Below are positions 535 through 19,407 of a stretch of 64,000 nucleotides of DNA, one piece after another. The translations under genes were made by a program, and so were the position numbers. The notes under the pieces were generated by a model. It saw only the letters and a program-made list of their open reading frames with translations, did not search any database and was not told the origin of the DNA. How positions within the stretch are numbered: the first letter of the stretch is position 1; each line of letters begins with the position of its first letter. This DNA comes from a candidate division WWE3 bacterium (GTDB taxonomy: Bacteria; Patescibacteriota; 4484-211; GCA-002791395), in NCBI GenBank assembly GCA_013335095.1, contig JAAXWF010000001.1, positions 292,268 through 356,267 of the forward strand, given 5' to 3'.

Positions 535-661
535 GGCGATAGTTTACCATATCATTGCACCTTGTCCAATAACAACGCGTCTGTGTTAAAATGCACGGTT
601 GCCTGAAATATCAAGGTATCCCTTGCAGGGAGTATTCATATTCAGTTAATATAGTATTGTC

Positions 662-1147
662 ATGGCAAGAATGCATAAAATCCCACAAAATGTAACGACC
701 TACGAAGGAAAAGTAATTGGTCGATTTACGGCTAAACAGTTCATATTTCTTGCGATCGGCGCCATTGCTATATTTTTGGTCATTAGTATACCGCTCCCCA
801 AAGTAGTAAAGATTGTATTAGGCATTATTTTTGGTCTTATATCATTAATATTCGCACTGGCAAATTTTCAAGGAAGAACAACTGATGTTTGGATTAGCAG
901 TTTTCTCAAAGGAGTTAACAGCGCAACTCAGCTAATCTGGCGAAAATCTTACTATCCTCCAATGTACCTACTCCCCGATTATCACCCACCTAAAATGGAG
1001 CGAGGTCCACGCAAACGTTCGACTAATGAACTAGAACGATTTATCCAGTTGTATCAGCCGCCACCGGAAAGTTCCGATTACAGCCCCGAAGAAAATGAAG
1101 TACTACAAAGATTGCGCGAGATGAAAAAACAAGGAGGTACAGCATAA
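662..1147 (+). CDS. Small polytopic membrane protein, first gene of the VirB4 operon (PrgI/VirB3-like topology)
   Basis: 161 aa with two hydrophobic helices near the N-terminus; stop/start is tightly coupled to the next gene (1147/1150). T4SS-associated role is inferred from context only. Confidence 0.35.
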   Translation: MARMHKIPQNVTTYEGKVIGRFTAKQFIFLAIGAIAIFLVISIPLPKVVKIVLGIIFGLISLIFALANFQGRTTDVWISSFLKGVNSATQLIWRKSYYPPMYLLPDYHPPKMERGPRKRSTNELERFIQLYQPPPESSDYSPEENEVLQRLREMKKQGGTA

Positions 1148-1149
1148 CC

Positions 1150-2487
1150 ATGGATGACCAAATAAAGCCGACCCCACAACCAAACAGCACCGCTCATCAA
1201 CCGCCTCCGTCAAATAATATTGCATTTAGACCACTCGCTGGAGCGATAAACACGAATAATCAATCCAATTTAAACAAAAGTACCACCCCAGAGTCTTCAG
1301 CAACTCCGGATTCCCCTAATTTTGTTAAAGGCCATACGGTTATTCCGAGCAGTTCACCTCAAATAGTAACACCAGATCAATCTATCCCCCAAAAACAAAT
1401 ACCAACTACGCCCGAAGCCTCGCAGGTTCGGACTGCAAATCCACTTTTTATGTCCAATGAGCCAACAATACCCTACCAACAATCACAACCCACGATATCA
1501 CAGGCTGGGCCTGGACAACCGCAACCAGTACCAACCCAACCGATAGCTCAACAGGCACCCATTGCACAACCGCCGCAGCCGGCACCGATAATTGATCCCA
1601 CGATATTGCAAAAGAAGGCTGTGGAGAGCCAACAGTTAATGAATGCAGCGGCACAGATTGAACAAAAATTAGTCGAAAAACAAGAATTACTGACAAATTT
1701 GCAAAAGGAAAATCAACCACATAAAGACCAGCTACAAACGCTTAATACTGAATCAAAAACTATTGGCGCGGTCATACAGAATCTACGACAACAATTTAAC
1801 AATTTGGACGGAAATTCCCTGCATGTAGAAACAATGGATGAAATTCAAGAAAAAATCAAAGAAAAAGAACAGCAAAGTATCCAGCTCGAAAGCAAGATAA
1901 ATGCCCTTCATCAAAGCATATCGCAAGAACAGCAATTAACTAATGAAGTCGAAAACTATCGCCAACAAATACGTGAATTAGTTCAGCAGCAACAAAAGCT
2001 TCAAGATGTCATTAATGAAGAAGAACAAAAGCTAAATCAAATTACCCAGCAGCTAAACCAGCAAGTCCAAGAAACACAGAGTCGCGCTAATCAAATTAAG
2101 CAGTTGGAAGAATTCTTGAATGAAGCGATATTAAACACCGCACACACTCCTCCAACACCCGAAACAGTAAAGACAGCCCAATTTATGAATCCAAATGAAA
2201 TCCCAGTCTTAACTCAAAAGCCGAATGCAGTGAATGGTGTAGTTAAAGATCAAAATGGAAGACTATTACCTGACATGGTTGTTATGATTAAAGACGCTGC
2301 CAACCATAACTTGCGGGCAATGAAATCAAATAAATTGGGACAATTTGTTGTAACCACGCCTCTTGTCAATGGACAGTATTACATCGAAGTGTCGAAACCG
2401 GGATTTACCTTTGCAGTTGTAGAGGTTAAACTAGATGGTGGCATACTTCCACCTATTGAAGTAATCGGACATGAAACTACTACCTAA
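1150..2487 (+). CDS. Pro/Gln-rich coiled-coil protein with C-terminal carboxypeptidase-regulatory-like beta-sandwich, T4SS-operon member
   Basis: 445 aa. The N-terminal half is low-complexity (P/Q/T-rich), the middle is a heptad-like coiled coil (QQ..L..E..), and the C-terminus (VKDQNGRLLPDMVVMIKDAAN...GQYYIEVSKPGF) matches the CarboxypepD_reg fold pattern. Overlaps the next gene by 17 nt. Confidence 0.45.
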   Translation: MDDQIKPTPQPNSTAHQPPPSNNIAFRPLAGAINTNNQSNLNKSTTPESSATPDSPNFVKGHTVIPSSSPQIVTPDQSIPQKQIPTTPEASQVRTANPLFMSNEPTIPYQQSQPTISQAGPGQPQPVPTQPIAQQAPIAQPPQPAPIIDPTILQKKAVESQQLMNAAAQIEQKLVEKQELLTNLQKENQPHKDQLQTLNTESKTIGAVIQNLRQQFNNLDGNSLHVETMDEIQEKIKEKEQQSIQLESKINALHQSISQEQQLTNEVENYRQQIRELVQQQQKLQDVINEEEQKLNQITQQLNQQVQETQSRANQIKQLEEFLNEAILNTAHTPPTPETVKTAQFMNPNEIPVLTQKPNAVNGVVKDQNGRLLPDMVVMIKDAANHNLRAMKSNKLGQFVVTTPLVNGQYYIEVSKPGFTFAVVEVKLDGGILPPIEVIGHETTT

Positions 2488-3208
2488 AAGCCAAGACTTT
2501 TTAGAAATAATTGATATTAAAGACGGAGTCCTTGTATTAAGCGGAGGTAAGTTCCGTGTGGTTATTGAAGCAACCGCAATCAACTTTGACCTCTTATCCG
2601 AAGATGAACAAAACGCAACTATATTTGCTTATTCTAACTTAGTAAACTCGCTCAACTACCCTATCCAGATTTTAGTCAGAACGCGTCAAGTCGATATCAC
2701 AAATTATTTGAGTTACCTCAAAAAGTATCTTCGGGATCAACCAACCGCAGCATTAAGAGAACAATTACAAGACTACATCGATTTTTGCCAACAGTTGGTT
2801 TTGGAAAATATCGTCTTACAGAAGCGATTCTTTGTTGTTATCCCCTATTGGCAATCATCAACAACAGGACCAAGCACGCCCCAAAAGAAAGCCAAATCCC
2901 CCGGGTTACTTGATGGACTTCCATTAATTGGCAAAAAATCCACCACGCAACCGTTGGTTGATGACACCATTTATTCAGAAGAAGCATTCAAAAAAGCGAA
3001 ACAAAGTTTGAATCAACGGTATGAAGAGGTTCGATGGCAGTTCAAACGTCTCGGGATACAAGTGCGTCTTTTAGGAACCGAAGAGCTAATTCGGTTATAT
3101 TATGAAATACTTAACCCCGAGACTGGTCAAAATAGAGGACTCAAAGACGATTTATATGGATATACCGTACCGATTGTTAACTCGGCACTCGATATCGGAG
3201 AATACTAA
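2471..3208 (+). CDS. Hypothetical protein, T4SS-operon member
   Basis: 245-aa ORF translationally coupled on both sides (its stop TAA is directly followed by the ATG of the VirB4-like gene). Confidence 0.5.
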   Translation: MKLLPKSQDFLEIIDIKDGVLVLSGGKFRVVIEATAINFDLLSEDEQNATIFAYSNLVNSLNYPIQILVRTRQVDITNYLSYLKKYLRDQPTAALREQLQDYIDFCQQLVLENIVLQKRFFVVIPYWQSSTTGPSTPQKKAKSPGLLDGLPLIGKKSTTQPLVDDTIYSEEAFKKAKQSLNQRYEEVRWQFKRLGIQVRLLGTEELIRLYYEILNPETGQNRGLKDDLYGYTVPIVNSALDIGEY

Positions 3209-5454
3209 TGGATAAAATATTAAAACCGCTAAAAGATTTACTATCACCGAAAAAAAACGCCTCAAAAGCGGCTGCTCCAGCTGGCTCTGGGAATGGACCA
3301 AAACCAGCAGTACCAACTTCTGCATCTCTTAAACCAGGTGTGACACCTGCAGCTCCAAATACGCCAGAACTACCAACTCAAACCGATCAGGTTGATCGTC
3401 AACAAATAGTTAAACAAGCCCAATTATTTGCGCGTGGATTAATTGATATTAGAGACATTATCGCGCCAAGTGGTATTGAAGTTGATTTTAATGAGATTAG
3501 AATCGGATCGACCTATTACCGAACATATTTTATCGCAGGATATCCGCGAGAAGTCGGCCCCAACTGGCTTGCTCCGTTAATTAACTTTCCTCAAGCCCTC
3601 GACATTTCGATGTTTTATTACCCAATCGATGCTCGAGACGTGCTCAAAAATTTGCGTCGAAAAATTACCGAGATGCAGACCGAGCTAAACATAGAGTATA
3701 AAGAAGGACGTATTTTAGACCCCGAAGTTCAATTAGCTCTTCAGGACGCAAAATCGTTACAGGATGAGCTTGTTGCAGAGCGGGAACGATTCTTCCAGTT
3801 TGCCTTATACATAACAATACCTCACGAAGACGTAAAACAACTCCATCTTATTTGTAAGCAGGTCGAAAGCATATTAGCCGGTATCCTTCTACTGACTCGT
3901 AAAGCGACTTTACAGATGGACGACGGTTTTAGATCAACCTTACCAATTCATAACGATAAACTCCAGGTCTACCGCAACATGGATACGACATCGATAGCAA
4001 GTACGTTTCCCTTTACTTCAAGTAGTTTAACCAGTGATGAAGGTATCCTGTACGGTATCAATGAGCATAACGGAAGTTTAGTTGTATTTGACCGATTTAG
4101 GATGGAAAATGCAAATTCGGTAGTATTTGGAAAATCTGGTTCAGGTAAAAGTTACACGGTTAAACTTGAAGCAATCAGATACCTACTTCTAGGCACAGAA
4201 ATCATTGTTATTGACCCTGAACAGGAATTCAGAACCCTCAGCGATGTTATTGGTGGAGAGTATATTACCTATGACTTCACCTCAAAAACACGTATTAATC
4301 CATTTGATCTATCTCAAGTGTTTGAAGAAGGAGAAGATCAGCTTGAGACGAAGATCTTAGTTCTTCACTCACTCATGAAACTAATGCTTGGAGATATGAC
4401 CGCTAGCCAAGAAGCGGTGTTGGACCGAGCACTTTTGGAGACGTATCGATTAAAAGGAATATCATCAGATCCAAGCACCCAGCGAAAAGAACCACCACTT
4501 ATGGAAGATTTGTATAAGGTATTTCTTGGAATGGAAGATGAAGACGCCAAAGAACTCTCAAAACGATTGGAAAAATTCGTCATGGGATCGGCTAAAGGAC
4601 TCTTTGACCAGCCGACTAACATCGATATAAAAAATACATTTACCGTATTCGGTATTCGCGATCTAGAAGAAACAATCCGACCGATTGGTATGTTCTTAAT
4701 TCTTGATTATATCTGGACCAGAGTCCGTCGTGACCGACGCAAACGTCTACTCTTCGTCGATGAAGCGTGGATCATGATGAAGAATGCCGATTCTGCTAAC
4801 TTCATGCATTCCCTTGCAAAGCGAGCCCGAAAATATTACCTGGGAATAACCACGATCAGTCAGGATATTGAAGATTTCTTCAACCATGAAAAGGGTTTAG
4901 CAATCATTAAAAACAGTTCCATTCAGGTGCTCATGAAACAATCATCAAGTGCTATAGATAAACTGGCGGATGTCTTTATCCTATCTGAAGGTGAGCAAAA
5001 TCTACTCTTGTCGGCAAACGTTGGTGAAGGATTATTCTTCGCCGGACAAAATCACGTCGCGATACAGATGGTAGCCGGTCTCAAAGAACACGAATTAATA
5101 ACAACCAACCCAGCCGAATTACAACAAATCGAACGGATGAAACAACAACAAAACTCCGATGACCGTATCCGTAAGCTACAAGAACAGGGTCGGTTAACAT
5201 TCCAGACACCAACACAGCCGGATGCCCAACCAGCCGAACAACAAATGACGGATATGACATCGGCTCCAACTCCCGATGCATTAGATCAAAACGCCGGAAT
5301 GCCAGCATCTGATTCTTATGAGGCAGCTCCGACCCAGCAAACTGAAACAGAGATGTCACAAGGTGTTGAGATTACTGATTTCTCCCAAGGAGAGTCGACC
5401 CAACCGTCTCAACCCGAAGCAACGACGTTGCCCGATGATCCATCACAGGTCTAA
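3208..5454 (+). CDS. VirB4/TrbE/CagE-family type IV secretion ATPase
   Basis: 748 aa. Walker A VVFGKSGSGKSYTVK, Walker B RLLFVDEAWIMM, then TISQDIEDF, with a size and domain order typical of VirB4-like conjugation/T4SS ATPases. Confidence 0.75.
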   Translation: MDKILKPLKDLLSPKKNASKAAAPAGSGNGPKPAVPTSASLKPGVTPAAPNTPELPTQTDQVDRQQIVKQAQLFARGLIDIRDIIAPSGIEVDFNEIRIGSTYYRTYFIAGYPREVGPNWLAPLINFPQALDISMFYYPIDARDVLKNLRRKITEMQTELNIEYKEGRILDPEVQLALQDAKSLQDELVAERERFFQFALYITIPHEDVKQLHLICKQVESILAGILLLTRKATLQMDDGFRSTLPIHNDKLQVYRNMDTTSIASTFPFTSSSLTSDEGILYGINEHNGSLVVFDRFRMENANSVVFGKSGSGKSYTVKLEAIRYLLLGTEIIVIDPEQEFRTLSDVIGGEYITYDFTSKTRINPFDLSQVFEEGEDQLETKILVLHSLMKLMLGDMTASQEAVLDRALLETYRLKGISSDPSTQRKEPPLMEDLYKVFLGMEDEDAKELSKRLEKFVMGSAKGLFDQPTNIDIKNTFTVFGIRDLEETIRPIGMFLILDYIWTRVRRDRRKRLLFVDEAWIMMKNADSANFMHSLAKRARKYYLGITTISQDIEDFFNHEKGLAIIKNSSIQVLMKQSSSAIDKLADVFILSEGEQNLLLSANVGEGLFFAGQNHVAIQMVAGLKEHELITTNPAELQQIERMKQQQNSDDRIRKLQEQGRLTFQTPTQPDAQPAEQQMTDMTSAPTPDALDQNAGMPASDSYEAAPTQQTETEMSQGVEITDFSQGESTQPSQPEATTLPDDPSQV

Positions 5455-5495
5455 AAATATTTCACACACAAAGAATCTATGTTATATTAATAAAT

Positions 5496-6197
5496 ATGAA
5501 CCAACGTGCTTTTATGGTCGTTGAAACAGGAATAGTAGCAGTTATTCTCCTGATTTTGGCGACAATATGGTTCGTTAGGTATAGTGCTCCGGTTCCGGTT
5601 TCACCATCGCAAGAGACGCCGCATCAATCGCCTACTCCTACCCTAACATCAATAATAACTAGCGCCCCAATACAAGAAGCCCAAACGCTAGATTTTCCTG
5701 AAAATTACCAATCGGCTTCTTGGACAGTGAATAACGTAGACGAGTTATCATTTCAGCTAAATTGCTTTGATACAAAAAGTCAAAAAATAGTTGATTGCAA
5801 TAGCCCTAAAAAAGGTGAAAAGATGTCAACAACGATTCCTAATATACCCAGCATTGAAGAGGCCCGAGACAAAATTGACAAGATTGGTGAATACTATGTT
5901 TCCGAGTTAACAAAACAAGGCTGGAATCATTACCTGTCTTTTAACGACGTCGATGTTTCATTACCTAATGGCGATGGACCAGCCGCGACAGCGTGGGGAA
6001 TGTTGGGCTACAAAGAACATACAGTGCGTTCTGCGTTCTTCTCGCAAAGCATTGAAGGAATAAGTTGGAATGAAGAAACCCTGGAGCCGATTTGTCCATG
6101 TACCGTTAAAGTTGACATTGAACTTAGTGAAAAAGCCCCCTTTTCACTCCCCCCTATTAGTATGAACAAATTCCCGCAAACATTTTCCGCACGATGA
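5496..6197 (+). CDS. Hypothetical membrane-anchored secreted protein
   Basis: 233 aa with an N-terminal transmembrane helix (VVETGIVAVILLILATIWFV), a P/T/S-rich linker and a Cys-containing C-terminal domain. Confidence 0.45.
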   Translation: MNQRAFMVVETGIVAVILLILATIWFVRYSAPVPVSPSQETPHQSPTPTLTSIITSAPIQEAQTLDFPENYQSASWTVNNVDELSFQLNCFDTKSQKIVDCNSPKKGEKMSTTIPNIPSIEEARDKIDKIGEYYVSELTKQGWNHYLSFNDVDVSLPNGDGPAATAWGMLGYKEHTVRSAFFSQSIEGISWNEETLEPICPCTVKVDIELSEKAPFSLPPISMNKFPQTFSAR

Positions 6198-6281: not shown

Positions 6282-7379
6282 TTACAGTACATTTAATTCC
6301 CGCAAATCAATTCGGGAATCATTCGGGAAATATTCGGGAATCATGTGGTCATTTACCGCTGCGGTAATAAATGTCTGATATGGTGCAATTTCTTGCGAAA
6401 GAACCGCCCGATTTGATTCATCTAACTCTGAAAAAACATCATCAAGAAGCAATATCGGACTATTACCAGTACTCTCAGACAAGATATCCCTCTCCCCCAT
6501 TTTTAACCGCATCATCGCCACCCTTTGTTGCCCACGAGATCCATAAATTCCCGCATCTTTCCATCCTTCAGGAGACGATTGATCAGCTATAAATACCGAA
6601 AAATCATCCCGTTGATTCCCTGTTAAGGTGAATTTTAATAACCTCTCTTTTTCCCGCAATCCCCGCATTTTTTCCCGCAATAATTCCCGCACATTTACCG
6701 AATTATTCTCCGCATTTATTTCCGCAAGATTCCCGCGCAATTCCCGCGGACTTGGTAAATAATTAATTTTGACGTCATATGGGGACAAAAGCCCATTTAA
6801 CCGATCAATTACCGCATTCCTGCGGGAATAAATTACCGCACCTTTTTCACTCATTCGGTCCTCAATAACCTCAAGAACATCCAGATTACCGCTTAATTCC
6901 CGCAGCAAGGCATTCCGCTGATGCAATAACTTTTGATACGTAATTAAATCTGCCAGATATTCAATATCATACTGCCCAATCAATCGATCTAAAAAATTAC
7001 GTCGTATGGCTGGAGAACCCGTCAGTAAATACAAATCGGTCGGTTGAAAATAGACAACACTAAAGTGACCGAAATAACGGCGAAAATCTACTTTTTTACG
7101 ATTAACAAAGAATGTTTTTCTAGTTAACTGAACAGCGACTGACAAAACAAAGTCACTAACGCTCCCCTCTATACGTGCATATGGTTGTTGCCACTGAATT
7201 AATTCCCGCATATGAGAAGTACGCGGAGAACTCCCCGTAGCAAGAAGGTAAATAGCCTCTAAAAGGTTACTTTTCCCGAAACCGTTCCGTTCAATAATGA
7301 CATTCGTAGTGGGATGAAAATTATTAAGGGTAATGCGGGAAATATTGCGGTAATTCTCTAAAATCAAATCTGTAAGCAT
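6282..7379 (-). CDS. recF: DNA replication and repair protein RecF
   Basis: N-terminus MLTDLILENYRNI...NVIIERNGFGKSNLLEAIYLLATG is the RecF Walker A region; length 365 aa; lies downstream of dnaA-dnaN. Its coding sequence carries an unusual TTCCCGCA array (see findings). Confidence 0.8.
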   Translation of the reverse strand: MLTDLILENYRNISRITLNNFHPTTNVIIERNGFGKSNLLEAIYLLATGSSPRTSHMRELIQWQQPYARIEGSVSDFVLSVAVQLTRKTFFVNRKKVDFRRYFGHFSVVYFQPTDLYLLTGSPAIRRNFLDRLIGQYDIEYLADLITYQKLLHQRNALLRELSGNLDVLEVIEDRMSEKGAVIYSRRNAVIDRLNGLLSPYDVKINYLPSPRELRGNLAEINAENNSVNVRELLREKMRGLREKERLLKFTLTGNQRDDFSVFIADQSSPEGWKDAGIYGSRGQQRVAMMRLKMGERDILSESTGNSPILLLDDVFSELDESNRAVLSQEIAPYQTFITAAVNDHMIPEYFPNDSRIDLRELNVL

Positions 7380-7384
7380 ATCAA

Positions 7385-8989
7385 TTACCGCTTTCTCGCA
7401 TACGCACCATTAATCCAACCTTGTTTTCCATCTTGCATTAAGATCAAAATATACCCGTTTTCCTCTCTAATCCAACCAAACTTGTCACCAGGAAATACTG
7501 TTGTAACAAGAGGTGCATTAAGGCCAGCACCTTCTCGGACATTTAAAAATCCTGTTGGTGTGTCTAGTATTGTTAACATATTAGTCTGCTCTCCAACGAC
7601 GTTCACCGATAAAGATATTCCGGAATCGGGAATAACATTCCCCTTTTCATCGCGTAATACAAACCTTTCATTAATCGTATCGGTATAAATAGGAGCTTTA
7701 AAATAAAATTGGAAGGTCGCGATAGAGCCCGGAAGCACCTGATCTTCAACAAAAGTTCCGACTTCATGGGGAGACCTCCAGCTCTCAGGATCATATAAAT
7801 ATGACTGTTCTCCCGTATCCGACGTGGTAAGTATCAACCGATGACTTCCCGACTTTTGCCATACAAATCCACTCATATTCTGCCATTTTAGTTCAGCTTT
7901 TCGCCGCTCCCCTGTCGAATAAGTCAGATTACTAAGTTGAGTTATTGATCTTGCATTTATCTGAGGATCCTTCCCAAGCTGAGAACGAAGCAGAGCAATA
8001 CTATGGCGAACCGCATCATTTAATGGCTTATCTTCGGAATTAACGACCAAAACAGGTGCAACATTGGCCTTATAACCAAGCTCCAAAAATTGAGAAAAAT
8101 CAAAATCAAAGATTCCCAACCCTTCATAAACCCGCCCCTTCTCATCAATTAAATAGGCAAACGGTAATCCAGTTGTCTTATATGTCGTTTCCATTAACGA
8201 TTCATATTCCCGCAAAAAATCCGGAAATAAATCGACATCGTTGTTTAACACCGAACCTTCGAGAGGAATACTCCAAACATCTAAAGAGTTCCAAGGTTTT
8301 ACGATCAATTTAAGATTATTCATAACCACCGATCCGCCCCCCCATTGTGCCCGAGACATTACGGTAAGGTCTCCATTGTCAGAGCCGGTATCTTCAACGT
8401 CCAATTTTTCGAGCTGATTTGTAAGTGAAGGAAGTAAGTCAACATTAATAGTGGTAAGTCGATCATTGGCAAAATCGAATTCGATAGTCTTATCCTGATA
8501 TCCTGGACGTTTAATCAGTATGGCGTGATGACCTGGGGCAACATCTTCTAAGGACAAGGGAGTAGATCCGACATCGGTGCCATCTAACGATATATTCGCA
8601 TTTGCCGGACGAGTTGCGATAACCACTTTACTTGAACCAGAAAATAATACGTGTGCAGGTTCGACACTTAATGAATATCCATAGGCAAACTTTTTATCAC
8701 CGGATATTTGACGTGAAATAATGCTTTCATTTCCAGAACCGATCGAAATTTTCTCTTTCCAAATATCTCCAATTTCGACAAGTTGCTTTCCTGCACTAAC
8801 TTCGACCGATTTCAACGGCGTATTCCCAACAATAACACCATTCACTTTTACTTCTTGAGAATCCATAGTTACATCAACCGAGAGAGTACCTTTTTCAGAA
8901 GTGGATGGACCATTAAAATAACCGAGCGCAAACCAAACGCCTACGATAACAGATACAATCAGAATAAATATTACGATGATACGGCTCAT
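7385..8989 (-). CDS. Cell-envelope protein with N-terminal transmembrane helix, PEGA domain and C-terminal SH3b-like domain
   Basis: 534 aa. PEGA-like segments VKVNGVIVGNTPLKSVEVSAG and ANISLDGTDVGSTPL...HHAILIKRPGYQDK; the C-terminus GFLNVREGAGLNAPLVTTVFPGDKFGWI...GKQGWINGAY resembles a bacterial SH3 domain. The stop overlaps the dnaN stop region, so it is operonic between dnaN and recF. Confidence 0.5.
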   Translation of the reverse strand: MSRIIVIFILIVSVIVGVWFALGYFNGPSTSEKGTLSVDVTMDSQEVKVNGVIVGNTPLKSVEVSAGKQLVEIGDIWKEKISIGSGNESIISRQISGDKKFAYGYSLSVEPAHVLFSGSSKVVIATRPANANISLDGTDVGSTPLSLEDVAPGHHAILIKRPGYQDKTIEFDFANDRLTTINVDLLPSLTNQLEKLDVEDTGSDNGDLTVMSRAQWGGGSVVMNNLKLIVKPWNSLDVWSIPLEGSVLNNDVDLFPDFLREYESLMETTYKTTGLPFAYLIDEKGRVYEGLGIFDFDFSQFLELGYKANVAPVLVVNSEDKPLNDAVRHSIALLRSQLGKDPQINARSITQLSNLTYSTGERRKAELKWQNMSGFVWQKSGSHRLILTTSDTGEQSYLYDPESWRSPHEVGTFVEDQVLPGSIATFQFYFKAPIYTDTINERFVLRDEKGNVIPDSGISLSVNVVGEQTNMLTILDTPTGFLNVREGAGLNAPLVTTVFPGDKFGWIREENGYILILMQDGKQGWINGAYARKR

Positions 8990-10125
8990 GCATTTGTCTC
9001 ATTGAGAGTCATCGGCATAACAATATGTTGATAATCGTGGCGATCATCAATCGCTTCAAGTAGTACGGGCGTACTCATACCGCTAATTTTAAGACGAATC
9101 TGTTCAGCATCAATCGATGAAACACCTTCTAATAAATAACGTGAATTAAATCCGAGTTGGATTGATTCGCCTTCAAGTACTCCGGTAATTTTACCGGTAT
9201 GACTTCCGACCTCTGAACTACGAGCGCTCAATTGCATAGTCTGAGTCTCTTTATCAAATTTTACCGTGATCGCTTGTCCTTCGCGAGAGGCAAACAGTGA
9301 TGTAGCTCGTATAGCTTCAATAAACTGTGATCGATTAAATGTTCCAGTCGTTACAAATTGCGTAGGGAATATTCGCTGATACGGAGGATATTCGGCTTCA
9401 AGAAGACGTGAGATAATCTCGACCTCACCATATTGGAAAAAGATTTGACTATCTTCTCGACTAAAAAATACCCCAACATTATCGGCACTCGTACTTGAAT
9501 CAGCTATCAGGTGATCAACCTCAGCCAGTGCTTGAGCAGGAACGATAATAGATCCATTCATCGCCGCATTGGTCGGTAATTTATATATAGACAAACGAAA
9601 ACTATCTGTCGCGACAACCGAAAGCATGCCCTCTTCAGCCTGAGTTAGTAGCGCACCAGTTAAAACAGGATGAGTCTCTCCTCCGGCAGCTGCAAAGCAC
9701 ACCTTTTTAACCATCCGACGAAATAGTTGAGGATCAAAACTCATATGGTTAGTTTGATTTTGACGACTTGGAAGCTCTGGAAAGTCCGTTGGTGGCATAG
9801 TTACGAACGTTGCTTGATTACTATTTGATTCAACAACTAATTGACGAAGATCACTATGCAACGTGAGTGTTTCGTCAGATAAGAGAGAGAGGAATTCACT
9901 GAATTTTTTTGCAGGTATAGTTATTTGTCCTGGTTCTTCGACTTTTGCCGCTATGGTTAATCGAATTGATAATTCAAGATTTGAAGATTCTATCTTTAAC
10001 AGGTTATCGGGAGTAGCGGTGAGCAGTAAGTTTGAAAGAATCGGTAAATTAGACTTAGTCGTGACTATCTTGGCGGCAAACAATGATCCTTTGTACAAAC
10101 GCTCACGAATTACGCTTAATCTCAT
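8986..10125 (-). CDS. dnaN: DNA polymerase III beta subunit (sliding clamp)
   Basis: MRLSVIRERLYKGSLFAAKIVTTKSNLPILSNLLL aligns with the DnaN N-terminus. The ORF track extends 12 codons further upstream (to 10161) but MRLSV is the likely start. Three-domain length of about 380 aa. Confidence 0.85.
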   Translation of the reverse strand: MRLSVIRERLYKGSLFAAKIVTTKSNLPILSNLLLTATPDNLLKIESSNLELSIRLTIAAKVEEPGQITIPAKKFSEFLSLLSDETLTLHSDLRQLVVESNSNQATFVTMPPTDFPELPSRQNQTNHMSFDPQLFRRMVKKVCFAAAGGETHPVLTGALLTQAEEGMLSVVATDSFRLSIYKLPTNAAMNGSIIVPAQALAEVDHLIADSSTSADNVGVFFSREDSQIFFQYGEVEIISRLLEAEYPPYQRIFPTQFVTTGTFNRSQFIEAIRATSLFASREGQAITVKFDKETQTMQLSARSSEVGSHTGKITGVLEGESIQLGFNSRYLLEGVSSIDAEQIRLKISGMSTPVLLEAIDDRHDYQHIVMPMTLNETNA

Positions 10126-10161
10126 AGTCAATACTTTAACATACACATTCTTTAGTAGCAA

Positions 10162-10404
10162 TTATAGGGGACGTGGATTAGTGGAAAACTACGTTACGCT
10201 ATGTTGATATACGCAAAGTGTTGTGGAAACTGTCGGGAAGAGTTTGGGATAGATTGTGGATTATTCACAATCTATAAATATTTATCCACAAAATAAAAAT
10301 ATAATCTACAAACTATCCACAAAATATAAAAAGTTATCCACAATTACAAACTTTGAGATACATTTATTAAAATTACGCCTATGAAATTATTATCCTAAAG
10401 ATGG
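10162..10404. promoter_or_regulatory. Putative oriC: DnaA-box cluster plus AT-rich unwinding region between dnaA and dnaN
   Basis: Perfect TTATCCACA boxes at 10282-10290 and 10334-10342; near-perfect boxes TTATTCACA (10261), CTATCCACA (10313), TAATCTACA (10302), TTGTGGAAA (10221) and TTGTGGATT (10254), followed by an AT-rich tract (aaaatataaaaag, catttattaaaatt). Further boxes lie upstream of dnaA (TGTGGATAA at 11922-11930, TTGTGGAAA at 11847). Confidence 0.7.
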
Positions 10405-11820
10405 TTATCCGTAGAGTTCCTGACGAATGTGATGAAGGTGGGAGCGTAATAGGGGATTATTATTTTGTTCGATAGCCTGTTTAATTCGATCGCATCCATG
10501 CATAACGGTCGTATGATCTCGTCCACCCAGAACCTCGCCTATTTCTTCGAGGTTCATCCCTAGTTCATTTCGTAAAAGAAACATCGTCATTTGGCGGGGG
10601 AGTACGATCTCCTTTTTTCGTTTTTTTCCGCAGAGGTCTTTTATGCTTGTGTCGAATTGGCGTGTTACTAATTCGAGTATTAGTTCCGGAGTGATACGTT
10701 TTTGAACGGTTTGTACATCGGCTTTGGGTTCTATAACTGATCGGACAAATGCGAGATTGATTGGCTGTGATTGAGTATTGGCCAGTGATTTAACCTGCAG
10801 GAGTGTTCCTTGAATCTCTCGAACGTTTTGACTTGATTGTTCGGCAATGTACTCGTAAATAGCATCGCTTAGATTTATTTGCAATTCTTCAGCTTTTGTT
10901 CGAACGATAGCGAGACGCGTTTCGTAATCCGGCGGGCTTATCTGAACCATTAATCCGCCCTTAAATCGCGAGATTAGTCGATCGGTTAATCCTTGAATTT
11001 GGGATGGTTCGCGGTCTGATACAACGACGATTTGGCTGCCTATTTGTTGCAGTTCATTAAAGCTGTGGTAAAACTCTTCCTGGCTCGACTCCTTTCCTGC
11101 GAGAAACTGGATGTCATCGATTAAAAGGGCATTACAGGTTCTGTAGCGGCTTCTGAACTGTTGCATATCCTTTTTCTGTCTCAGGTGTTCAACCATGTCG
11201 TTAACAAACTTTTCGCTGGTTGTATACATAATTCGATACGAGGAGAAGTTCTCTAATATCCCATTCCCAATCGCATGGAGGAGGTGCGTTTTTCCAACGC
11301 CAGTTGATCCATAAATGAATAGTGGATTATAAATGTGTCCAGGATTTTCCATGACCGATACCGCAGCTGCGTGTACCACCCGATTGCTTGGCCCAACTAC
11401 ATAATTGTCTAGCGTCATCTGGGGATTTAGAAGTCCTACCTCTGGTCTTTGAATAGACATTGTCGAACTTTCTCGTGGGGTGTAGGTGGTTGGGGATGAG
11501 TTTGTGGCCAGTGGAGAGGCTTTTAAGTCTGGGGCTTCGTCAAATAAGGGCCCGTGCACCGGTGTTTGTACGCGAAGAGGCTTCACAATAAAGTCGATGC
11601 TGTATTTACGTTGCTCGATCTGTCGGATGATATCGGCGATTTTATCGGCATAGCGTTTTTGGATAATACTTTTGCTATATGAATCGGTACAAGCGATGAT
11701 TATTTTATCTTCACTTGTTTCATAAAGCTGAGTGTTGCGAAACCACGTAGATACTGCAGCTGGATCTAATTCTATTTCTAATGTTGCTAAGACTTGTTGC
11801 CATAAATTGGGAGAAGCCAT
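10405..11820 (-). CDS. dnaA: Chromosomal replication initiator DnaA
   Basis: 471 aa. AAA+ Walker A NPLFIYGSTGVGKTHLLHAIGN, a C-terminal DNA-binding domain (HTTVMHGCDRI), and DnaA boxes on both flanks. Confidence 0.9.
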   Translation of the reverse strand: MASPNLWQQVLATLEIELDPAAVSTWFRNTQLYETSEDKIIIACTDSYSKSIIQKRYADKIADIIRQIEQRKYSIDFIVKPLRVQTPVHGPLFDEAPDLKASPLATNSSPTTYTPRESSTMSIQRPEVGLLNPQMTLDNYVVGPSNRVVHAAAVSVMENPGHIYNPLFIYGSTGVGKTHLLHAIGNGILENFSSYRIMYTTSEKFVNDMVEHLRQKKDMQQFRSRYRTCNALLIDDIQFLAGKESSQEEFYHSFNELQQIGSQIVVVSDREPSQIQGLTDRLISRFKGGLMVQISPPDYETRLAIVRTKAEELQINLSDAIYEYIAEQSSQNVREIQGTLLQVKSLANTQSQPINLAFVRSVIEPKADVQTVQKRITPELILELVTRQFDTSIKDLCGKKRKKEIVLPRQMTMFLLRNELGMNLEEIGEVLGGRDHTTVMHGCDRIKQAIEQNNNPLLRSHLHHIRQELYG

Positions 11821-11944
11821 GATGTTCTCCTACGATACTTGTTTTTGTGGAAAACTGTCAATTCGATTTTAGGTTGATACGTTAGTGTTTTTAGGTCAAT
11901 GGGAAGTATAGGCTACTGCTATGTGGATAACTCTGGTTTTGTAA

Positions 11945-12856
11945 TTATGCTTTTCTAAAACTGATTACAAAGCCGTAAGCGGTGAGCATAAACAGCAGGG
12001 TAAAGAAGATTAACGTATTTTCGGTCGTACCGCTTTCAGGTAATACCGTGGCAAGTGGAGTTGGAGTGACAGTTGGTCGTGATGTCGGTGTCGGGGTTTT
12101 TGTAGGTGTTGGTGTGCTTGTCGCAATTGGTGCCCCTAGTGCTACTGTGGGGGTATTTGTCGGACGACTGGTAACGCTTGGTGCTTGGGTTGGGGTATTT
12201 GATGGTTTTGCGGTTACAGTTGGGGCTATTGTTGTTCCCGCTGTAGGGGATGCCGCTGGGGTCGTATTTGCGTTTGTTCCTTCGCAGTCAAACGAAGAGC
12301 TGCAATAATTTTGTCCCGGACCAGGAACTTCGACGCATAATCCAAAACGGCATTCCAAATGGGTCTGGGATTGAGCGGTTTCAGAAGGAGTTACCGTTGG
12401 TGTTACTGCTTTAGTTGGCGTGGCAGTTGGTTCGGGTGTTTGGTTATTTGTAGAAGATGGTTTAAAGAAAAAGAACCACGCCGCCGCTCCAAGGCCTACT
12501 ATTAAGATACCAACAATGAGTAAGATGATGCGCATTTTTCCTCCTGAAGATCCTGATTCACCCTCTGTGGTTAGGGCTGGCGCCGGTTGATCTGGTTGTC
12601 CTGCGTTTTCTAGGTAATTTACGCCAAGTTGATCATGGGCATGATCTGGTTCAGGTGCGGCAATCATATCGTTGGGGTGGGGTTGATCAACCGGTGGGGT
12701 TGTGTTGAAGCTATTTGTAGTATCTATTGGCATGGGTGCTTGTGCGATTGGTTGTTCTGGCGCATATCCGGATTGAATAGGTTCAGCTGTTGGTGGGTAA
12801 TTGGTCTCGTTTATTGGAAGATCGTTCTGGGGTAGTGATTGGTCTTGGCTATCCAT
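11945..12856 (-). CDS. Pro/Thr-rich membrane protein, hypothetical
   Basis: 303 aa; central transmembrane helix (IILLIVGILIVGLGAAAWFFFF), a long PT-rich low-complexity segment, a Cys-rich module (CRFGLCVEVPGPGQNYCSSSFDC) and a C-terminal hydrophobic helix. Confidence 0.45.
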   Translation of the reverse strand: MDSQDQSLPQNDLPINETNYPPTAEPIQSGYAPEQPIAQAPMPIDTTNSFNTTPPVDQPHPNDMIAAPEPDHAHDQLGVNYLENAGQPDQPAPALTTEGESGSSGGKMRIILLIVGILIVGLGAAAWFFFFKPSSTNNQTPEPTATPTKAVTPTVTPSETAQSQTHLECRFGLCVEVPGPGQNYCSSSFDCEGTNANTTPAASPTAGTTIAPTVTAKPSNTPTQAPSVTSRPTNTPTVALGAPIATSTPTPTKTPTPTSRPTVTPTPLATVLPESGTTENTLIFFTLLFMLTAYGFVISFRKA

Positions 12857-15249: not shown

Positions 15250-16824
15250 CTATTTTTTAACCGTATCAATGCCAATTACTTGAGAGATATGATTAAAGCC
15301 ATCTCGTTGAAGAAGTTCTTCCAAACCTAGATTTATCGATCCTATTAACTGTGGGCCAACAAAAATCATACCGGTAATAAGTTGTACCAAGCTTGCGCCA
15401 AGTCGTATCTTTGTATATGCATCTTCAGCCGAGAAGATTCCGCCACACCCAATAATGGTGAATCGCTCGTGATACGTGCCGTATGCCCGAGAAATTAATT
15501 CATTTGAGCGATTCCAGGTTGGTTTACCGCTAAAGTTTCCTACCGTAAACTGGTTTACTTCATCAGCTTGCAGTGGTTCGGCGGTCCTGTCTTTTTGCAG
15601 GTTTCCGACAATTATTCCGACAATCAAAGGTTCTTGAGCGAGCGTTTCTAATATGGCATCAAATTGATCATTTGTTACAGATATCGGCATTTTAACCCAA
15701 ATTGGACGGGTGATATTAAGTTTATGTACGCCTTGCAATAGTACCGAGAGATTATCCACGTTATAGAAATCTATTGAGGTTTGTAAATTCGGACAGCTAA
15801 TATTTAGTTCGTAATATGAATGAGAGAGCGTTGAGTGCTCGAACTTCTTAAATGTTTCGGTAATATCGATTACTGCATCCTCTACAGTTTGTATGTCTGA
15901 AGTATTTGTTGTTCCGATACTCACCCCTATTTGCCCAAACATTTCGTGTTTTGCCAGTTTTGTAATTACCGTGTCGGCTCCGGGGTTACGAAAGCCTTTG
16001 TTAACCATGAGCGATTGTGACTGTATCAATCGTCCAAGTTGTGGATCCGGATTACCCTGGCATGGTTTGTTGGTGATTGTTCCGATCGTTTGAAAACCGA
16101 ATCCCATGCTTTCTAGAATTTGAGTTAATTGAGCGTTGTAATCAAATCCGGCAGCTAACCCCACAGGAGAACTAAAGTGAACACCATGATACGCTTGGCA
16201 TAATTTTGAAGAATCATAGTCGTATAACCACGACATAAATGTTCTGGTTATGAGGCATTTTCCAAGTAATTCGCCCACGTTGGTCATACCTATGTGCACT
16301 GTTTGAGGCTTATGAGTAAACAGGAGTGGTTTTAGAACTCTTTGATATCCGATCTTAGTTGCAAAGCTTATTGTATCGACCCGTTCTCGTGTCATTATCA
16401 GCCATATAACCCCAGCGATTACAGTTGATATAAATGCTGATGTGGTGCAGAAAAGGCAGATCGCGCCAATGACAAAAATTTGTAAATACATAAAGTACAG
16501 TGAAGCGAAAAATCCTCCCGCACTGATAGGGTAGAGTAATCGATCGACAAACTTTGTCTTTGGATTTAAGGTTAGTAGCGTTACGGTAAGTATCGTCAGG
16601 TAATAAATAACGCCGATATATGCAAGTGGTATCGAAAATATTTGTGAATAGCTGCTCTGCAGGACACTTCCGCAGTCACTCGCCAAAAATCCGACGCTAC
16701 ATTGTGGTATTGTTCCTGTTGCATGCTCATATGATAGATACCCAGCGTCAAGTAGGCCGAAAGTTGCTAAGCTAAGTATCGAAAGCTTGGCGAAAGATAG
16801 TGAGTTTGATGTAGTGTGAGTCAC
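15250..16824 (-). CDS. Fusion protein: N-terminal VKOR (vitamin K epoxide reductase) membrane domain + C-terminal dihydroorotate dehydrogenase-like flavoenzyme domain
   Basis: VKOR loop Cys pair CSVGFLASDCGSVLQSSYSQ and the TM4 CXXC (ICLFCTT) across five predicted helices. The C-terminal half aligns to family-2 DHODH over its full length (GLAAGFDYN, GFGFQTIGTITNKPCQGNPDPQLGRL, NKGFRN, IIGCGGIFSAEDAYTKIRLGASLVQL), but the catalytic-base position reads NISCPN (Cys, as in family 1) rather than Ser. Confidence 0.7.
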   Translation of the reverse strand: MTHTTSNSLSFAKLSILSLATFGLLDAGYLSYEHATGTIPQCSVGFLASDCGSVLQSSYSQIFSIPLAYIGVIYYLTILTVTLLTLNPKTKFVDRLLYPISAGGFFASLYFMYLQIFVIGAICLFCTTSAFISTVIAGVIWLIMTRERVDTISFATKIGYQRVLKPLLFTHKPQTVHIGMTNVGELLGKCLITRTFMSWLYDYDSSKLCQAYHGVHFSSPVGLAAGFDYNAQLTQILESMGFGFQTIGTITNKPCQGNPDPQLGRLIQSQSLMVNKGFRNPGADTVITKLAKHEMFGQIGVSIGTTNTSDIQTVEDAVIDITETFKKFEHSTLSHSYYELNISCPNLQTSIDFYNVDNLSVLLQGVHKLNITRPIWVKMPISVTNDQFDAILETLAQEPLIVGIIVGNLQKDRTAEPLQADEVNQFTVGNFSGKPTWNRSNELISRAYGTYHERFTIIGCGGIFSAEDAYTKIRLGASLVQLITGMIFVGPQLIGSINLGLEELLQRDGFNHISQVIGIDTVKK

Positions 16825-17597: not shown

Positions 17598-17645
17598 AGG
17601 GCCGGCACCTTCTGATCTTGGTGATCAGTTGGTACCGGCCGTGTT
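17598..17645 (-). terminator. Intrinsic terminator downstream of island gene A
   Basis: On the minus strand: GGCCGGTACC...GGTGCCGGCCC stem enclosing an inner TGATC/GATCA palindrome, followed by a T-rich tract. Confidence 0.4.
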
Positions 17646-18221
17646 TTAGCGCGAAGGTCGAAGGACCTCGACCATGATCTGCTCTTTTAGGGCGGTTATC
17701 CCACCCTGCGAGAGCTTCTCGGTGATGAGGTCATGTCCGAGACCTGACCGTGCCGCCGCTGACCTCGCCCTCATCATATCGCCATATTGGCGGATGAGGT
17801 CTTCTACCGGCTCGTAGCCGGTGAAGCACTGGCCGAGCGTCATTGCGAGCAGGTTGGCTGGGATGCCGACCCGACGAGCCTGTATACGAAGGCTTTCCCG
17901 ATACTCACGTTCGGTAAGGTAACCTTCGTCCTCGTCTGGTTTCGGACGATGCCCGTTGAGCCGGTTGGTGCCGGCGAACCAGGCCGCTAGTTGTGCAATC
18001 TCTGGCTCGGTGGCTGCCCGTTTCGGGTCAGTTTTTCGAGTCAAAGCACACAGCTGAGCGGCGAGCTCGATGAACTCCCGGTCAACGATTATCGTGACCG
18101 GCTTGGGCTGGGCGATCGGCCGAGCCGGTCCCGACAACCCTTGACGCTTGAGCAGTTCGAGCGTTTTGGTTTTTCCGCCTCTAGCACCGTTATGTTGGTG
18201 CTTCCGTTGGGTGGTGGTCAA
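17646..18221 (-). CDS. Hypothetical protein (GC-rich island gene A)
   Basis: About 65 % GC. AAGGAGG RBS 5 nt upstream of a TTG start at 18221 (the ORF track extends to 18287). A consensus sigma70 promoter TTGACA-N18-TATAAT lies on the minus strand at 18258-18287. The product is Ala/Arg-rich with no recognised domain. Confidence 0.5.
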   Translation of the reverse strand: MTTTQRKHQHNGARGGKTKTLELLKRQGLSGPARPIAQPKPVTIIVDREFIELAAQLCALTRKTDPKRAATEPEIAQLAAWFAGTNRLNGHRPKPDEDEGYLTEREYRESLRIQARRVGIPANLLAMTLGQCFTGYEPVEDLIRQYGDMMRARSAAARSGLGHDLITEKLSQGGITALKEQIMVEVLRPSR

Positions 18222-18257
18222 GCCGACCTCCTTTGTTTTCAAAGAACTCGTTTTTAT

Positions 18258-19282: not shown

Positions 19283-19407
19283 TGTTCGCATTTACTTTGA
19301 AAAGTACGGTGTAATAACGTGTGTGTTATTACGGCAAACGGTTCTTATATTATAGCGAAATAGGGGATAAAAGTCAATTGCTATGGGGTAGTTGTGCGTA
19401 GCGTATA

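What the first reader, a model, noticed from the sequence alone, without database searches (positions are those of the whole stretch)
662..6197. Minimal T4SS-like locus next to the origin with VirB4 ATPase but no visible coupling protein, relaxase or pilin
The 748-aa ATPase has unambiguous VirB4/TrbE Walker A/B and TISQD motifs. It sits in a four-gene translationally coupled operon with a small two-helix membrane protein (VirB3/PrgI-like topology), a Pro/Gln-rich coiled-coil protein ending in a carboxypeptidase-regulatory-like beta-sandwich, and a 245-aa unknown. No VirD4, relaxase, VirB6 or VirB11 homolog is evident within 10 kb. This suggests a reduced secretion or uptake machine rather than a conjugative element, plausibly used for host or partner interaction in a small-genome organism.
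Basis: partly seen in the sequence, partly recalled or inferred. Interest (0 to 1): 0.5.

Follow-up and report, generated by a model that had tools for sequence, protein, structure and literature searches.

The report
Patescibacterial type IV secretion core operon
This is the ATPase core of the chromosomal, non-conjugative type IV secretion system that ultra-small Patescibacteria (here a WWE3 bacterium) keep next to their replication origin, a system already described in 2023-2025 papers, so the locus is real but not new.

Summary
Window 662-5454 is a four-gene, translationally coupled operon about 5 kb from oriC in a candidate division WWE3 (Patescibacteria/CPR) chromosome. It encodes:
- a PrgI/VirB3-like two-helix membrane protein;
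- a Pro/Gln-rich coiled-coil protein ending in a CarboxypepD_reg beta-sandwich;
- a 245-aa protein that is not unknown: it is TrsD/TraC-like, the N-terminal VirB4 piece that the ATPase gene lacks;
- a VirB4 ATPase that scores above NCBI's cut-off for the CD1110 family.

I found no VirD4, relaxase, VirB6, VirB11 or pilin in the 64 kb window or in 7 kb upstream of it.

The kind is already published. Quinonero-Coronel et al. 2025 describe this clade: VirB4, TrsD and PrgI, no relaxase, next to dnaA, dnaN, rnpA and rpmH. Wang et al. 2023 showed that the homologous trio is essential for epibiotic growth.

Two details go beyond those papers:
- In 64 of 84 related loci, PrgI and the beta-sandwich are one fused protein with no further membrane helix. 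Genes 1 and 2 here are therefore a lineage-specific split of one subunit, and the sandwich is probably cytoplasmic.
- The fifth ORF (5496-6197) is a fast-evolving envelope protein with a Mog1/PsbP-like fold. It is not VirB8 and not part of the conserved core.

Function remains inferred.

The parts
535..661 (.). Divergent spacer between rpmH (364-534, - strand) and the operon; presumed operon promoter region
   Evidence: A promoter-like site lies at 526-555 (9 of 12 matches). This is weak, because the number of such sites in the region equals chance. The sequence is shown.
662..1147 (+). PrgI/VirB3-like membrane hairpin (161 aa). Two helices at about residues 26-43 and 51-67, a 7-residue loop and a basic C-terminal tail
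   Evidence: Pfam PF12666, 35 bits against a cut-off of 27. NCBI names it 'PrgI family protein' NTV30659.1. Homologues occur in 71 of 85 loci. Flanking charge favours N-in/C-in topology.
1150..2487 (+). Detached C-terminal module of the CPR VirB3 subunit (445 aa). Pro/Gln-rich segment, coiled coil at about residues 155-325, and a C-terminal transthyretin-like beta-sandwich (CarboxypepD_reg, residues 361-429). No signal peptide and no membrane helix
   Evidence: PF13620, 35 bits against a cut-off of 32.3. Coiled-coil hits. Fused to PrgI in one ORF in 64 of 84 related loci and separate only in this lineage. None of the 64 fused proteins has a membrane helix after the PrgI domain. Pfam finds PrgI in 61 of 62 fused proteins and CarboxypepD_reg in 50 of 62. 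A profile of the domain matches only generic beta-sandwiches in the PDB.
2471..3208 (+). TrsD/TraC-like protein (245 aa): the N-terminal subdomain of VirB4 encoded as a separate polypeptide
   Evidence: NCBIfam TrsD E 4.4e-10. Residues 16-105 map to CD1110 VirB4 positions 11-102, residues 26-124 to Mbov_0397 VirB4 positions 127-233, and residues 172-224 to TraC-F positions 125-177. Precomputed Pfam PF26593 TraC-like. 70 of 72 relatives hit a VirB4 profile and 67 of 72 hit TrsD. It lies directly upstream of virB4 in about 77 loci.
3208..5454 (+). VirB4 ATPase (748 aa) with low-complexity tails of about 70 aa (N-terminal) and about 100 aa (C-terminal). It lacks the first ~180 positions of full-length VirB4 profiles
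   Evidence: NF045971, 391 bits against a cut-off of 325; query residues 76-619 align to profile positions 183-734. PDB 4AG5 E 7.7e-46. Walker A, Walker B and TISQD present. 55-78% identity to CPR homologues.
5496..6197 (+). Lineage-specific envelope protein (233 aa): N-terminal membrane helix, Pro/Thr linker and an extracytoplasmic Mog1/PsbP/DcrB-like domain with a conserved CPC motif. Not part of the conserved core
10255..10342 (.). DnaA-box cluster (oriC) in the dnaN-dnaA spacer, 4.8 kb from the end of virB4
   Evidence: Five boxes, two of them perfect. The cumulative GC-skew minimum lies at about 9.5-10 kb.

Best explanation
The locus is the cytoplasmic-membrane ATPase module of the Patescibacteria-clade type IV secretion system. 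That system descends from monoderm (MPF-FATA) conjugation machinery, is inherited vertically and is fixed next to oriC.

Shown:
- There are four coupled genes.
- A VirB3-like hairpin (PrgI) is present.
- VirB4 is built from two polypeptides: TrsD supplies the N-terminal subdomain, and the 748-aa protein supplies the rest of the N-terminal domain plus the Walker ATPase domain.
- In most relatives a coiled-coil/beta-sandwich module is the C-terminal extension of VirB3. Here it is a separate cistron.

Inferred:
- PrgI anchors the TrsD+VirB4 ATPase, presumably a hexamer, to the membrane.
- The VirB3 tail is cytoplasmic. The beta-sandwich therefore hangs on a long flexible or coiled-coil tether beside the ATPase, where it could dock a substrate or partner.
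- The motor drives assembly of, and transport through, a channel and VirB2-like pilus encoded elsewhere in the genome or too diverged to recognise.
- The machine serves contact with the host bacterium, not conjugation.

On direction of transport, I lean to host-access or uptake of host macromolecules (about 45%), over effector export (about 30%) or a purely adhesive pilus (about 15%). The reasons are that no coupling protein is linked to the locus, that the distant coupling-protein homologue is dispensable in S. epibionticum, and that T4SS-derived importers (ComB, Ced) also work without one. This last step is inference only. The confidence given is for the identity and architecture of the module, not for the direction of transport.
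For: Identity of the parts.

Organism and clade: the best 120 VirB4 hits are all CPR at 53-78% identity. 597 relatives were found in GTDB genomes.

Conserved order: PrgI(+sandwich) > TrsD > VirB4 in about 70 loci. Within 8 kb, dnaN is present in 61 loci, dnaA in 56 and rnpA in 54.

Fusion and topology.

No conjugation genes in 64 kb plus 7 kb upstream.

Literature:
- PMC12102498 reports a monophyletic Patescibacteria VirB4 clade nested in MPF-FATA, TrsD and PrgI next to virB4, a relaxase near virB4 in only 15 cases, and proximity to dnaA, dnaN, rnpA and rpmH.
- PMC10633639: SEML1_0008 (VirB4), SEML1_0009 (293 aa) and SEML1_0010 (PrgI family) are all scored essential by Tn-seq.
- PMC12857230 and PMC11665869: the role is unknown, import has been proposed, and comEC is dispensable.
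Against: - No channel protein (VirB6), pilin or wall hydrolase was found in the 71 kb read, so the module cannot be shown to belong to a complete machine in this genome.
- The cytoplasmic location of the beta-sandwich rests on the positive-inside rule and on homology to VirB3. CarboxypepD_reg domains are usually extracytoplasmic.
- The bona fide Saccharibacterium S. epibionticum has a helical extension on PrgI, not the sandwich, so the sandwich is not universal.
- The 80 loci I analysed are the best matches to this VirB4 and are biased towards its relatives.
- I built no phylogenetic tree. Clade membership rests on best hits and synteny.
- There are no functional data for any WWE3 organism.
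Confidence: 0.82

Rival explanations
1. Self-sufficient minimal machine: the four proteins, perhaps with ORF5, are the whole apparatus in this WWE3 lineage. There would be no VirB6 channel and no pilus. It would be a truly reduced translocon.
For: Nothing else T4SS-like appears in 64 kb plus 7 kb upstream. The PrgI, TrsD and VirB4 trio is the only block conserved across the 80 loci. The accessory gene clusters upstream occur in at most 16 loci and have no homologue in the window.
Against: None of the four proteins forms a polytopic channel; PrgI has only a two-helix hairpin. VirB6-like and pilin genes are essential in S. epibionticum. The three closest relatives have three further co-directional genes upstream, one with a GH5 or M23 hydrolase domain, which points to relocation rather than loss. 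About 465 kb of the genome was not examined.
Confidence: 0.1
2. Decaying remnant of an integrated conjugative element that has lost its relaxase, coupling protein and channel genes.
For: The nearest characterised homologues are conjugation proteins: the CD1110, Mbov_0397 and TrsD/TraD families. Only part of a canonical gene set is present.
Against: The ORFs are intact and coupled, and the catalytic motifs are complete. VirB4 is 55-78% identical across CPR classes, in the same gene order and at the same origin-proximal position, which indicates long-term purifying selection. No integrase, repeats or compositional break flank the locus; GC is about 41%, the same as its surroundings. The homologous trio is essential in S. 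epibionticum.
Confidence: 0.03
3. Not a secretion system at all: a HerA/FtsK-type DNA pump that acts in chromosome replication or segregation, as its position among dnaA, dnaN and recF might suggest.
For: Pfam DUF87 (HerA central domain) hit of 33 bits. NCBI names the protein 'DUF87 domain-containing protein'. It neighbours replication genes.
Against: VirB4-specific profiles score far higher: CD1110 391 bits (above its cut-off), Mbov_0397 262, TraC 180 and VirB4_CagE 119. The solved VirB4 C-terminal domain matches with E 7.7e-46. The obligate partners PrgI/VirB3 and TrsD are adjacent. Origin proximity is a known trait of this T4SS clade.
Confidence: 0.02

Closest known systems
Patescibacteria-clade T4SS (Quinonero-Coronel et al. 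2025, PMC12102498; S. epibionticum SEML1_0006-0019, Wang et al. 2023, PMC10633639)
   Same: VirB4 of the CPR clade. TrsD directly upstream and PrgI/VirB3 upstream of that. Chromosomal, next to dnaA, dnaN, rnpA and rpmH. No relaxase or coupling protein nearby. Monoderm-type composition.
   Different: No VirB2-like pilin array, VirB6-like protein or hydrolase at the locus or within 64 kb. VirB3 is split into PrgI plus a separate coiled-coil/beta-sandwich protein. S. epibionticum PrgI carries a helical extension, not the sandwich. The searched papers do not mention the CarboxypepD_reg module.
pGO1/pSK41/pIP501-type MPF-FATA conjugation systems (TrsC-TrsD-TrsE; TraD-TraE)
   Same: The same trio logic: a VirB3-like protein, a separate TrsD/TraD protein homologous to the VirB4 N-terminus, and a VirB4 ATPase. 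The NCBIfam TrsD/TraD profile is matched.
   Different: Those systems sit on plasmids and have a relaxase, a coupling protein (TrsK), a hydrolase (TrsG) and further Trs proteins. This locus has none of these. The TrsD score (39.7 bits) is far below the family cut-off (200). No beta-sandwich on VirB3 was seen in these systems; that rests on my recollection of their small VirB3-like proteins and was not tested.
T4SS-like cluster on the 898-kb 'non-mobilizable' replicon of Pontibacillus sp. ALD_SL1 (NZ_CP062975.1), the best non-CPR match
   Same: PrgI (119 aa), TrsD (281 aa) and VirB4 (37% identity) in the same order and coupled. No relaxase is annotated nearby.
   Different: It also carries an Mbov_0395-type pilin-like gene, a 779-aa protein and a 1050-aa M23-type peptidoglycan endopeptidase. 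Its PrgI has no beta-sandwich extension. It is not at the origin.
T4SS-derived DNA importers: H. pylori ComB and crenarchaeal Ced (CedB)
   Same: They work like the favoured model: a VirB4-family motor acting without a relaxase or coupling protein, to take up macromolecules.
   Different: This locus is not a member. CedB scores 37 bits against a cut-off of 700 and CedD 34 against 600. ComB needs VirB6-10 homologues of diderm type, and none is present here.

Membership tests
VirB4/TrbE-family T4SS ATPase (MPF-FATA, CD1110 type) | Score above the curated family cut-off | tested here: met
   NF045971: 391.4 bits against a cut-off of 325, E 8.2e-117.
VirB4/TrbE-family T4SS ATPase (MPF-FATA, CD1110 type) | Walker A, Walker B and a conserved C-terminal ATPase domain like solved VirB4 | tested here: met
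   GKSGSGKS at 308, LLFVDE at 514, TISQD at 549. PDB 4AG5 E 7.7e-46 over residues 270-631.
VirB4/TrbE-family T4SS ATPase (MPF-FATA, CD1110 type) | Complete N-terminal domain in the same polypeptide | tested here: not met
   The alignment starts at profile position 183 of 752 (CD1110), 280 of 894 (Mbov_0397) and 279 of 800 (TraC). The missing segment is matched by the separate TrsD-like gene 3, as in pGO1-type systems.
Patescibacteria-clade T4SS | VirB4 belongs to the CPR clade | tested here: inconclusive
   The best 120 hits are all CPR or mislabelled MAGs at 53-78% identity. The best non-CPR plasmid hit is 37% identical. No tree was built.
Patescibacteria-clade T4SS | TrsD and PrgI/VirB3 adjacent to virB4 | tested here: met
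   The same order is seen in about 70 related loci.
Patescibacteria-clade T4SS | Chromosomal, near dnaA, dnaN, rnpA and rpmH, with no relaxase nearby | tested here: met
   rpmH and rnpA at 25-534, recF, dnaN and dnaA at 6282-11820. oriC boxes at 10255-10342. No relaxase or T4CP in 71 kb.
Patescibacteria-clade T4SS | VirB2-like pilins and a VirB6-like protein (frequent but not universal near virB4) | tested here: not met
   No Pfam hit. No match to an HMM built from the T4SS_pilin genes of L004. No small or polytopic candidate apart from unrelated membrane proteins. The rest of the genome was not readable.
Conjugative MPF-FATA T4SS (plasmid or ICE) | Relaxase, type IV coupling protein, and location on a mobile element | tested here: not met
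   None is present in the window or upstream. The only integrase-family gene (62848-63726) is 57 kb away. The locus is flanked by core genes and is syntenic across the phylum.
Ced DNA-import system | CedB/CedD-type ATPase above the family cut-off | tested here: not met
   CedB 37.4 bits against 700; CedD 34.1 against 600.
VirB8/PrgL/TcpC-like (NTF2-fold) T4SS subunit, considered for ORF5 | N-terminal membrane helix plus an NTF2-like extracytoplasmic domain | tested here: not met

The most novel reading that the evidence does not exclude
The transthyretin-like beta-sandwich is fused to the cytoplasmic tail of VirB3 in most relatives and is a separate, SD-preceded cistron here. It could be a Patescibacteria-specific T4SS subunit that takes over the substrate-docking role of the missing coupling protein, or gates import. 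Its fission in this lineage would offer a natural handle to study it on its own. The searched literature does not mention this module.
Probability: 0.15. Interest if true: 0.6.

Novelty: new member of a known kind. Interest (0 to 1): 0.3.

Why it matters
The Patescibacteria T4SS is the only T4SS known to be essential for its owner's growth, and its substrate and direction of transport are unknown.

This window adds no new kind of system. It does show the system stripped to its invariant core, and it clarifies what that core is:
- a VirB3 subunit with a long cytoplasmic tether and a terminal beta-sandwich, split into two genes in this lineage;
- a VirB4 ATPase made of two polypeptides.

This gives three concrete targets for complex prediction, pull-downs or cryo-ET in cultivable relatives. 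It also warns that annotations such as 'DUF87 protein' and 'hypothetical protein' in WWE3 genomes hide this system.

Tried and rejected
- AlphaFold2 of TrsD from a single sequence failed (pLDDT 35.6).
- hhalign of the TrsD family against the VirB4 family gave only a weak colinear match (E 0.025, probability 2%). I therefore relied on the mapping onto three full-length VirB4 profiles instead.
- TrsD has no sequence match in the PDB.
- A pilin HMM grown from the L004 pilins found only 6 ORFs in 4 loci and none in the window, so it is insensitive.
- I looked for this genome's protein accessions in the supplement of PMC12102498 and did not find them; the stored file is truncated.
- Promoter and terminator scans were at chance level.
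- VirB8 identity for ORF5 was rejected by fold search.
- HerA/FtsK and CedB identities for the ATPase were rejected on scores.
- The remnant-ICE reading was rejected on conservation and synteny.
- The 240-aa ORF of the GC-rich island has no phage match.
Full report
**What is there.** Window 662-5454 holds four + strand genes. Their junctions show translational coupling.
- PrgI ends in TAA at 1145-1147. An AAGGAGG box lies at 1131-1137 and the next ATG at 1150.
- Genes 2 and 3 overlap by 17 nt.
- Genes 3 and 4 share TAATG.

A fifth ORF (5496-6197) follows after a 41-nt AT-rich gap. That gap contains the best promoter-like site of the region, but such sites are no more frequent here than in shuffled sequence.

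To the left are rpmH and rnpA on the - strand. In the same genome these are followed by yidC, jag and envelope genes (L001). To the right are recF, a PEGA/SH3 envelope protein, dnaN and dnaA, all on the - strand.

Five DnaA boxes lie at 10255-10342 and two more at 11846-11930. The cumulative GC-skew minimum is at about 9.5-10 kb. Together these place oriC about 4.8 kb from the end of virB4.

The organism is a candidate division WWE3 bacterium of the Patescibacteria (CPR). All four proteins are in NCBI as NTV30659-30662 on a 536-kb contig. They are named 'PrgI family protein', 'hypothetical protein' twice, and 'DUF87 domain-containing protein'.

**Identity of the parts.**
- Gene 1 is a PrgI/VirB3-type hairpin (PF12666, 35 bits against a cut-off of 27).
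- Gene 4 is a VirB4. It scores 391 bits on NCBIfam NF045971 (CD1110 family, cut-off 325), 262 bits on Mbov_0397, 180 on TraC and 119 on VirB4_CagE. HerA/DUF87 scores only 33 bits and CedB 37.
- Residues 270-631 of gene 4 match the solved VirB4 C-terminal domain 4AG5 with E 7.7e-46. Walker A, Walker B and TISQD are present.
- Gene 3, the '245-aa unknown', is TrsD/TraC-like: NCBIfam TrsD E 4.4e-10, and precomputed Pfam PF26593.

On three independent full-length VirB4 profiles, gene 3 maps to the N-terminal stretch just before the region where gene 4 starts to align:

| Profile | Gene 3 maps to | Gene 4 maps to |
|---|---|---|
| CD1110 | 11-102 | 183-734 |
| Mbov_0397 | 127-233 | 280-877 |
| TraC | 125-177 | 279-787 |

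Together the two genes amount to one VirB4 split into two polypeptides. This is the arrangement known from pGO1-type systems. Of 72 relatives of gene 3, 70 hit a VirB4 profile and 67 hit TrsD.

Gene 2 has a Pro/Gln-rich start, a coiled coil that gives SMC/Rad50-type hits at residues about 155-325, and a C-terminal CarboxypepD_reg beta-sandwich (35 bits against a cut-off of 32.3).

**What is not there.** I ran Pfam on every large ORF of the window and read the gene calls for 7 kb upstream. They show metabolism, replication and repair, proteases, envelope enzymes, two sortases and one XerC/D-like integrase 57 kb away. There is no VirD4, relaxase, VirB6, VirB11 or pilin. A screen for small or polytopic membrane ORFs and a pilin HMM also found nothing T4SS-like.

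**Relatives.** I scanned one genome per GTDB species with a VirB4 alignment. This gave 597 relatives, and I analysed the best 80 loci together with four fetched by exact protein look-up. I called ORFs and searched them with iterated HMMs built from the window's proteins.
- VirB4 was found in 83 of 85 loci, TrsD in 80, the beta-sandwich in 75 and PrgI in 71.
- Within 8 kb, dnaN was present in 61 loci, dnaA in 56 and rnpA in 54.
- The order PrgI, sandwich, TrsD, VirB4 is constant.
- In 64 loci PrgI and the sandwich are one ORF of 314-890 aa. They are separate genes only in six loci, which include the window's closest relatives (L002, L006, L007) and a second lineage (L005/L018).
- Pfam independently finds PrgI in 61 and CarboxypepD_reg in 50 of 62 fused proteins.
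- None of the 64 fused proteins has a hydrophobic segment after the PrgI domain.
- The flanks of the hairpin carry more Lys and Arg than its ~11-residue loop.

VirB3 has a cytoplasmic C-terminus in other systems, where it can even be fused to VirB4 (established knowledge; the fusions are cited in PMC12102498). Gene 2 here has no signal peptide. The sandwich is therefore most likely a cytoplasmic appendage of VirB3 on a linker of variable length. This is inference, not demonstration.

A profile of the sandwich matches only generic transthyretin-like domains in the PDB: the SdrD B domain, carboxypeptidase M, NOMO and EMC7. It matches no T4SS subunit.

**Accessory genes.** All-against-all clustering of the 80 loci found no other block conserved beyond housekeeping genes. 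The largest upstream families occur in at most 16 loci, and none has a homologue in the window. The three closest relatives carry three co-directional genes just upstream of PrgI. The middle one has a GH5 domain in L002 and a Peptidase_M23 domain in L006. None has a homologue in the window. In this genome a rearrangement has put rpmH-rnpA next to PrgI. The locus is therefore minimal by position. Whether the genome lacks the other parts cannot be told from the sequence available.

**ORF5.** It has no homologue in the 84 related loci. Among 1.84 billion representative proteins it has only 20 weak relatives, at 22-32% identity.
- With those relatives as an alignment, AlphaFold2 gives a confident model (pLDDT 88.6). 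It shows a membrane helix, a Pro/Thr linker and an alpha+beta domain.
- Foldseek finds nothing significant in the PDB.
- In a short contig from a very close relative, whose VirB4 is 85% identical, a 30%-identical homologue occupies the same slot between virB4 and recF.

ORF5 is therefore a fast-evolving, lineage-restricted surface protein. It is not a core subunit.

**Comparison with what is known.** The kind is published.
- Quinonero-Coronel et al. 2025 (PMC12102498) found VirB4 in 2,417 of 3,035 Patescibacteria genomes. Almost all fall in one clade nested in MPF-FATA.
- In that study TrsD was the most frequent partner and PrgI/VirB3 was next to virB4. Relaxases were rare, and the locus lay close to dnaA, dnaN, rnpA and rpmH. 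The authors proposed a non-conjugative role, perhaps import.
- Wang et al. 2023 (PMC10633639) showed by Tn-seq that the T4SS cluster of S. epibionticum is essential. This includes SEML1_0008 (VirB4), SEML1_0009 (293 aa) and SEML1_0010 (PrgI family, 300 aa).
- Reviews state that the role is unknown.
- A 2026 preprint links pilus-like tubes of a cultivated member to feeding on host RNA.

None of these texts, nor the stored supplements, mentions the CarboxypepD_reg module, and no paper in the library pairs it with PrgI or VirB4. S. epibionticum PrgI carries a helical extension instead. The sandwich is thus widespread among this VirB4's relatives but not universal.

The best non-CPR match is a cluster on a 'non-mobilizable' 898-kb replicon of Pontibacillus. 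Its VirB4 is 37% identical. It has the same PrgI, TrsD and VirB4 order, plus a pilin-like gene, a large unknown protein and an M23 endopeptidase. Its PrgI is short, with no sandwich.

**How it most likely works.**

Shown:
- the composition and coupling of the operon;
- the two-piece VirB4;
- the split VirB3;
- conservation of the order and of the origin-proximal position.

Inferred from homology:
- PrgI anchors a TrsD+VirB4 ATPase at the membrane.
- The tethered sandwich sits beside it.
- The motor powers a channel and pilus encoded elsewhere, for contact with a host cell.

The direction of transport is open. I lean to host access or uptake (about 45%) over effector export (about 30%) or an adhesive pilus only (about 15%). 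No coupling protein is linked, the distant homologue is dispensable in S. epibionticum (PMC12102498), and the importers ComB and Ced also lack one.

**Verdict.** The modest additions are the reassignment of the 'unknown' gene to TrsD, the recognition that genes 1 and 2 are a fission of one VirB3-sandwich subunit, and the exclusion of ORF5 from the core.

Noticed in passing
window 17600-20450: GC-rich island (60-70% GC in a genome of about 41% GC). It holds three - strand ORFs without Pfam hits (17646-18287, 18394-19059, 19505-20227) and ends beside tRNA-Arg(ccg) at 20598-20674. It looks like foreign DNA inserted at a tRNA. The 240-aa ORF has no phage match.
   Followed up: partly
window 7385-8989 (- strand): A 534-aa envelope protein with an N-terminal membrane helix, two PEGA domains and a C-terminal SH3_3 domain sits between recF and dnaN, inside the otherwise canonical dnaA-dnaN-recF block. 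It is conserved at that place in L002 and L006.
   Followed up: partly
window 11945-12856 (- strand); sortases at 46153-47091 and 62196-62840: A 303-aa Pro/Thr-rich protein lies next to dnaA. It has an internal membrane helix and a C-terminal LPESG motif followed by a hydrophobic stretch and a basic tail (sortase sorting signal). It gives a weak hit to the CD1107-like mobile-element protein family (E 0.028). Two sortase genes lie elsewhere in the window.
   Followed up: no
window 5496-6197 and L087 1798-2514: ORF5 is only 30% identical to its positional counterpart in a genome whose VirB4 is 85% identical. Such fast divergence in a confidently folded Mog1/PsbP-like surface domain with an invariant CPC motif may reflect diversifying selection.
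   Followed up: partly
L002 627-5299; L006 1-5230; L007 591-4758: The three closest relatives share three co-directional genes immediately upstream of PrgI (about 320-337 aa, 710-1056 aa, 353-371 aa). The middle one carries GH5 in L002 and Peptidase_M23 in L006, while L007 has no recognised domain. They are candidate lineage-specific T4SS accessory or hydrolase genes and are missing from the window.
   Followed up: partly
window 48500-52300: A run of three + strand genes encodes zinc-ribbon (DZR) proteins (49436-50497, 50630-51616, 51756-52277). They lie in a stretch of raised GC (51-52%) with unknown neighbours.
   Followed up: no
window 15250-16824 (- strand): Dihydroorotate dehydrogenase fused to an N-terminal VKOR (vitamin K epoxide reductase) membrane domain, an unusual pairing in a reduced genome.
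   Followed up: no
plasmid collection; L086: 60 of 66 plasmid records with a TrsD-like hit are typed 'non-mobilizable'. Most are large Bacillales or Clostridia replicons. This suggests that relaxase-less PrgI-TrsD-VirB4 clusters also exist outside Patescibacteria, for example in Pontibacillus next to flagellar genes.
   Followed up: partly
loci L014, L015, L017, L020, L023 and others: Many GTDB genome records that carry this CPR-type locus are titled 'uncultured Gammaproteobacteria' or 'Pseudomonadales', and one 'Bathyarchaeia'. Given the CPR-type synteny around dnaA, these look like mislabelled MAGs.
   Followed up: no
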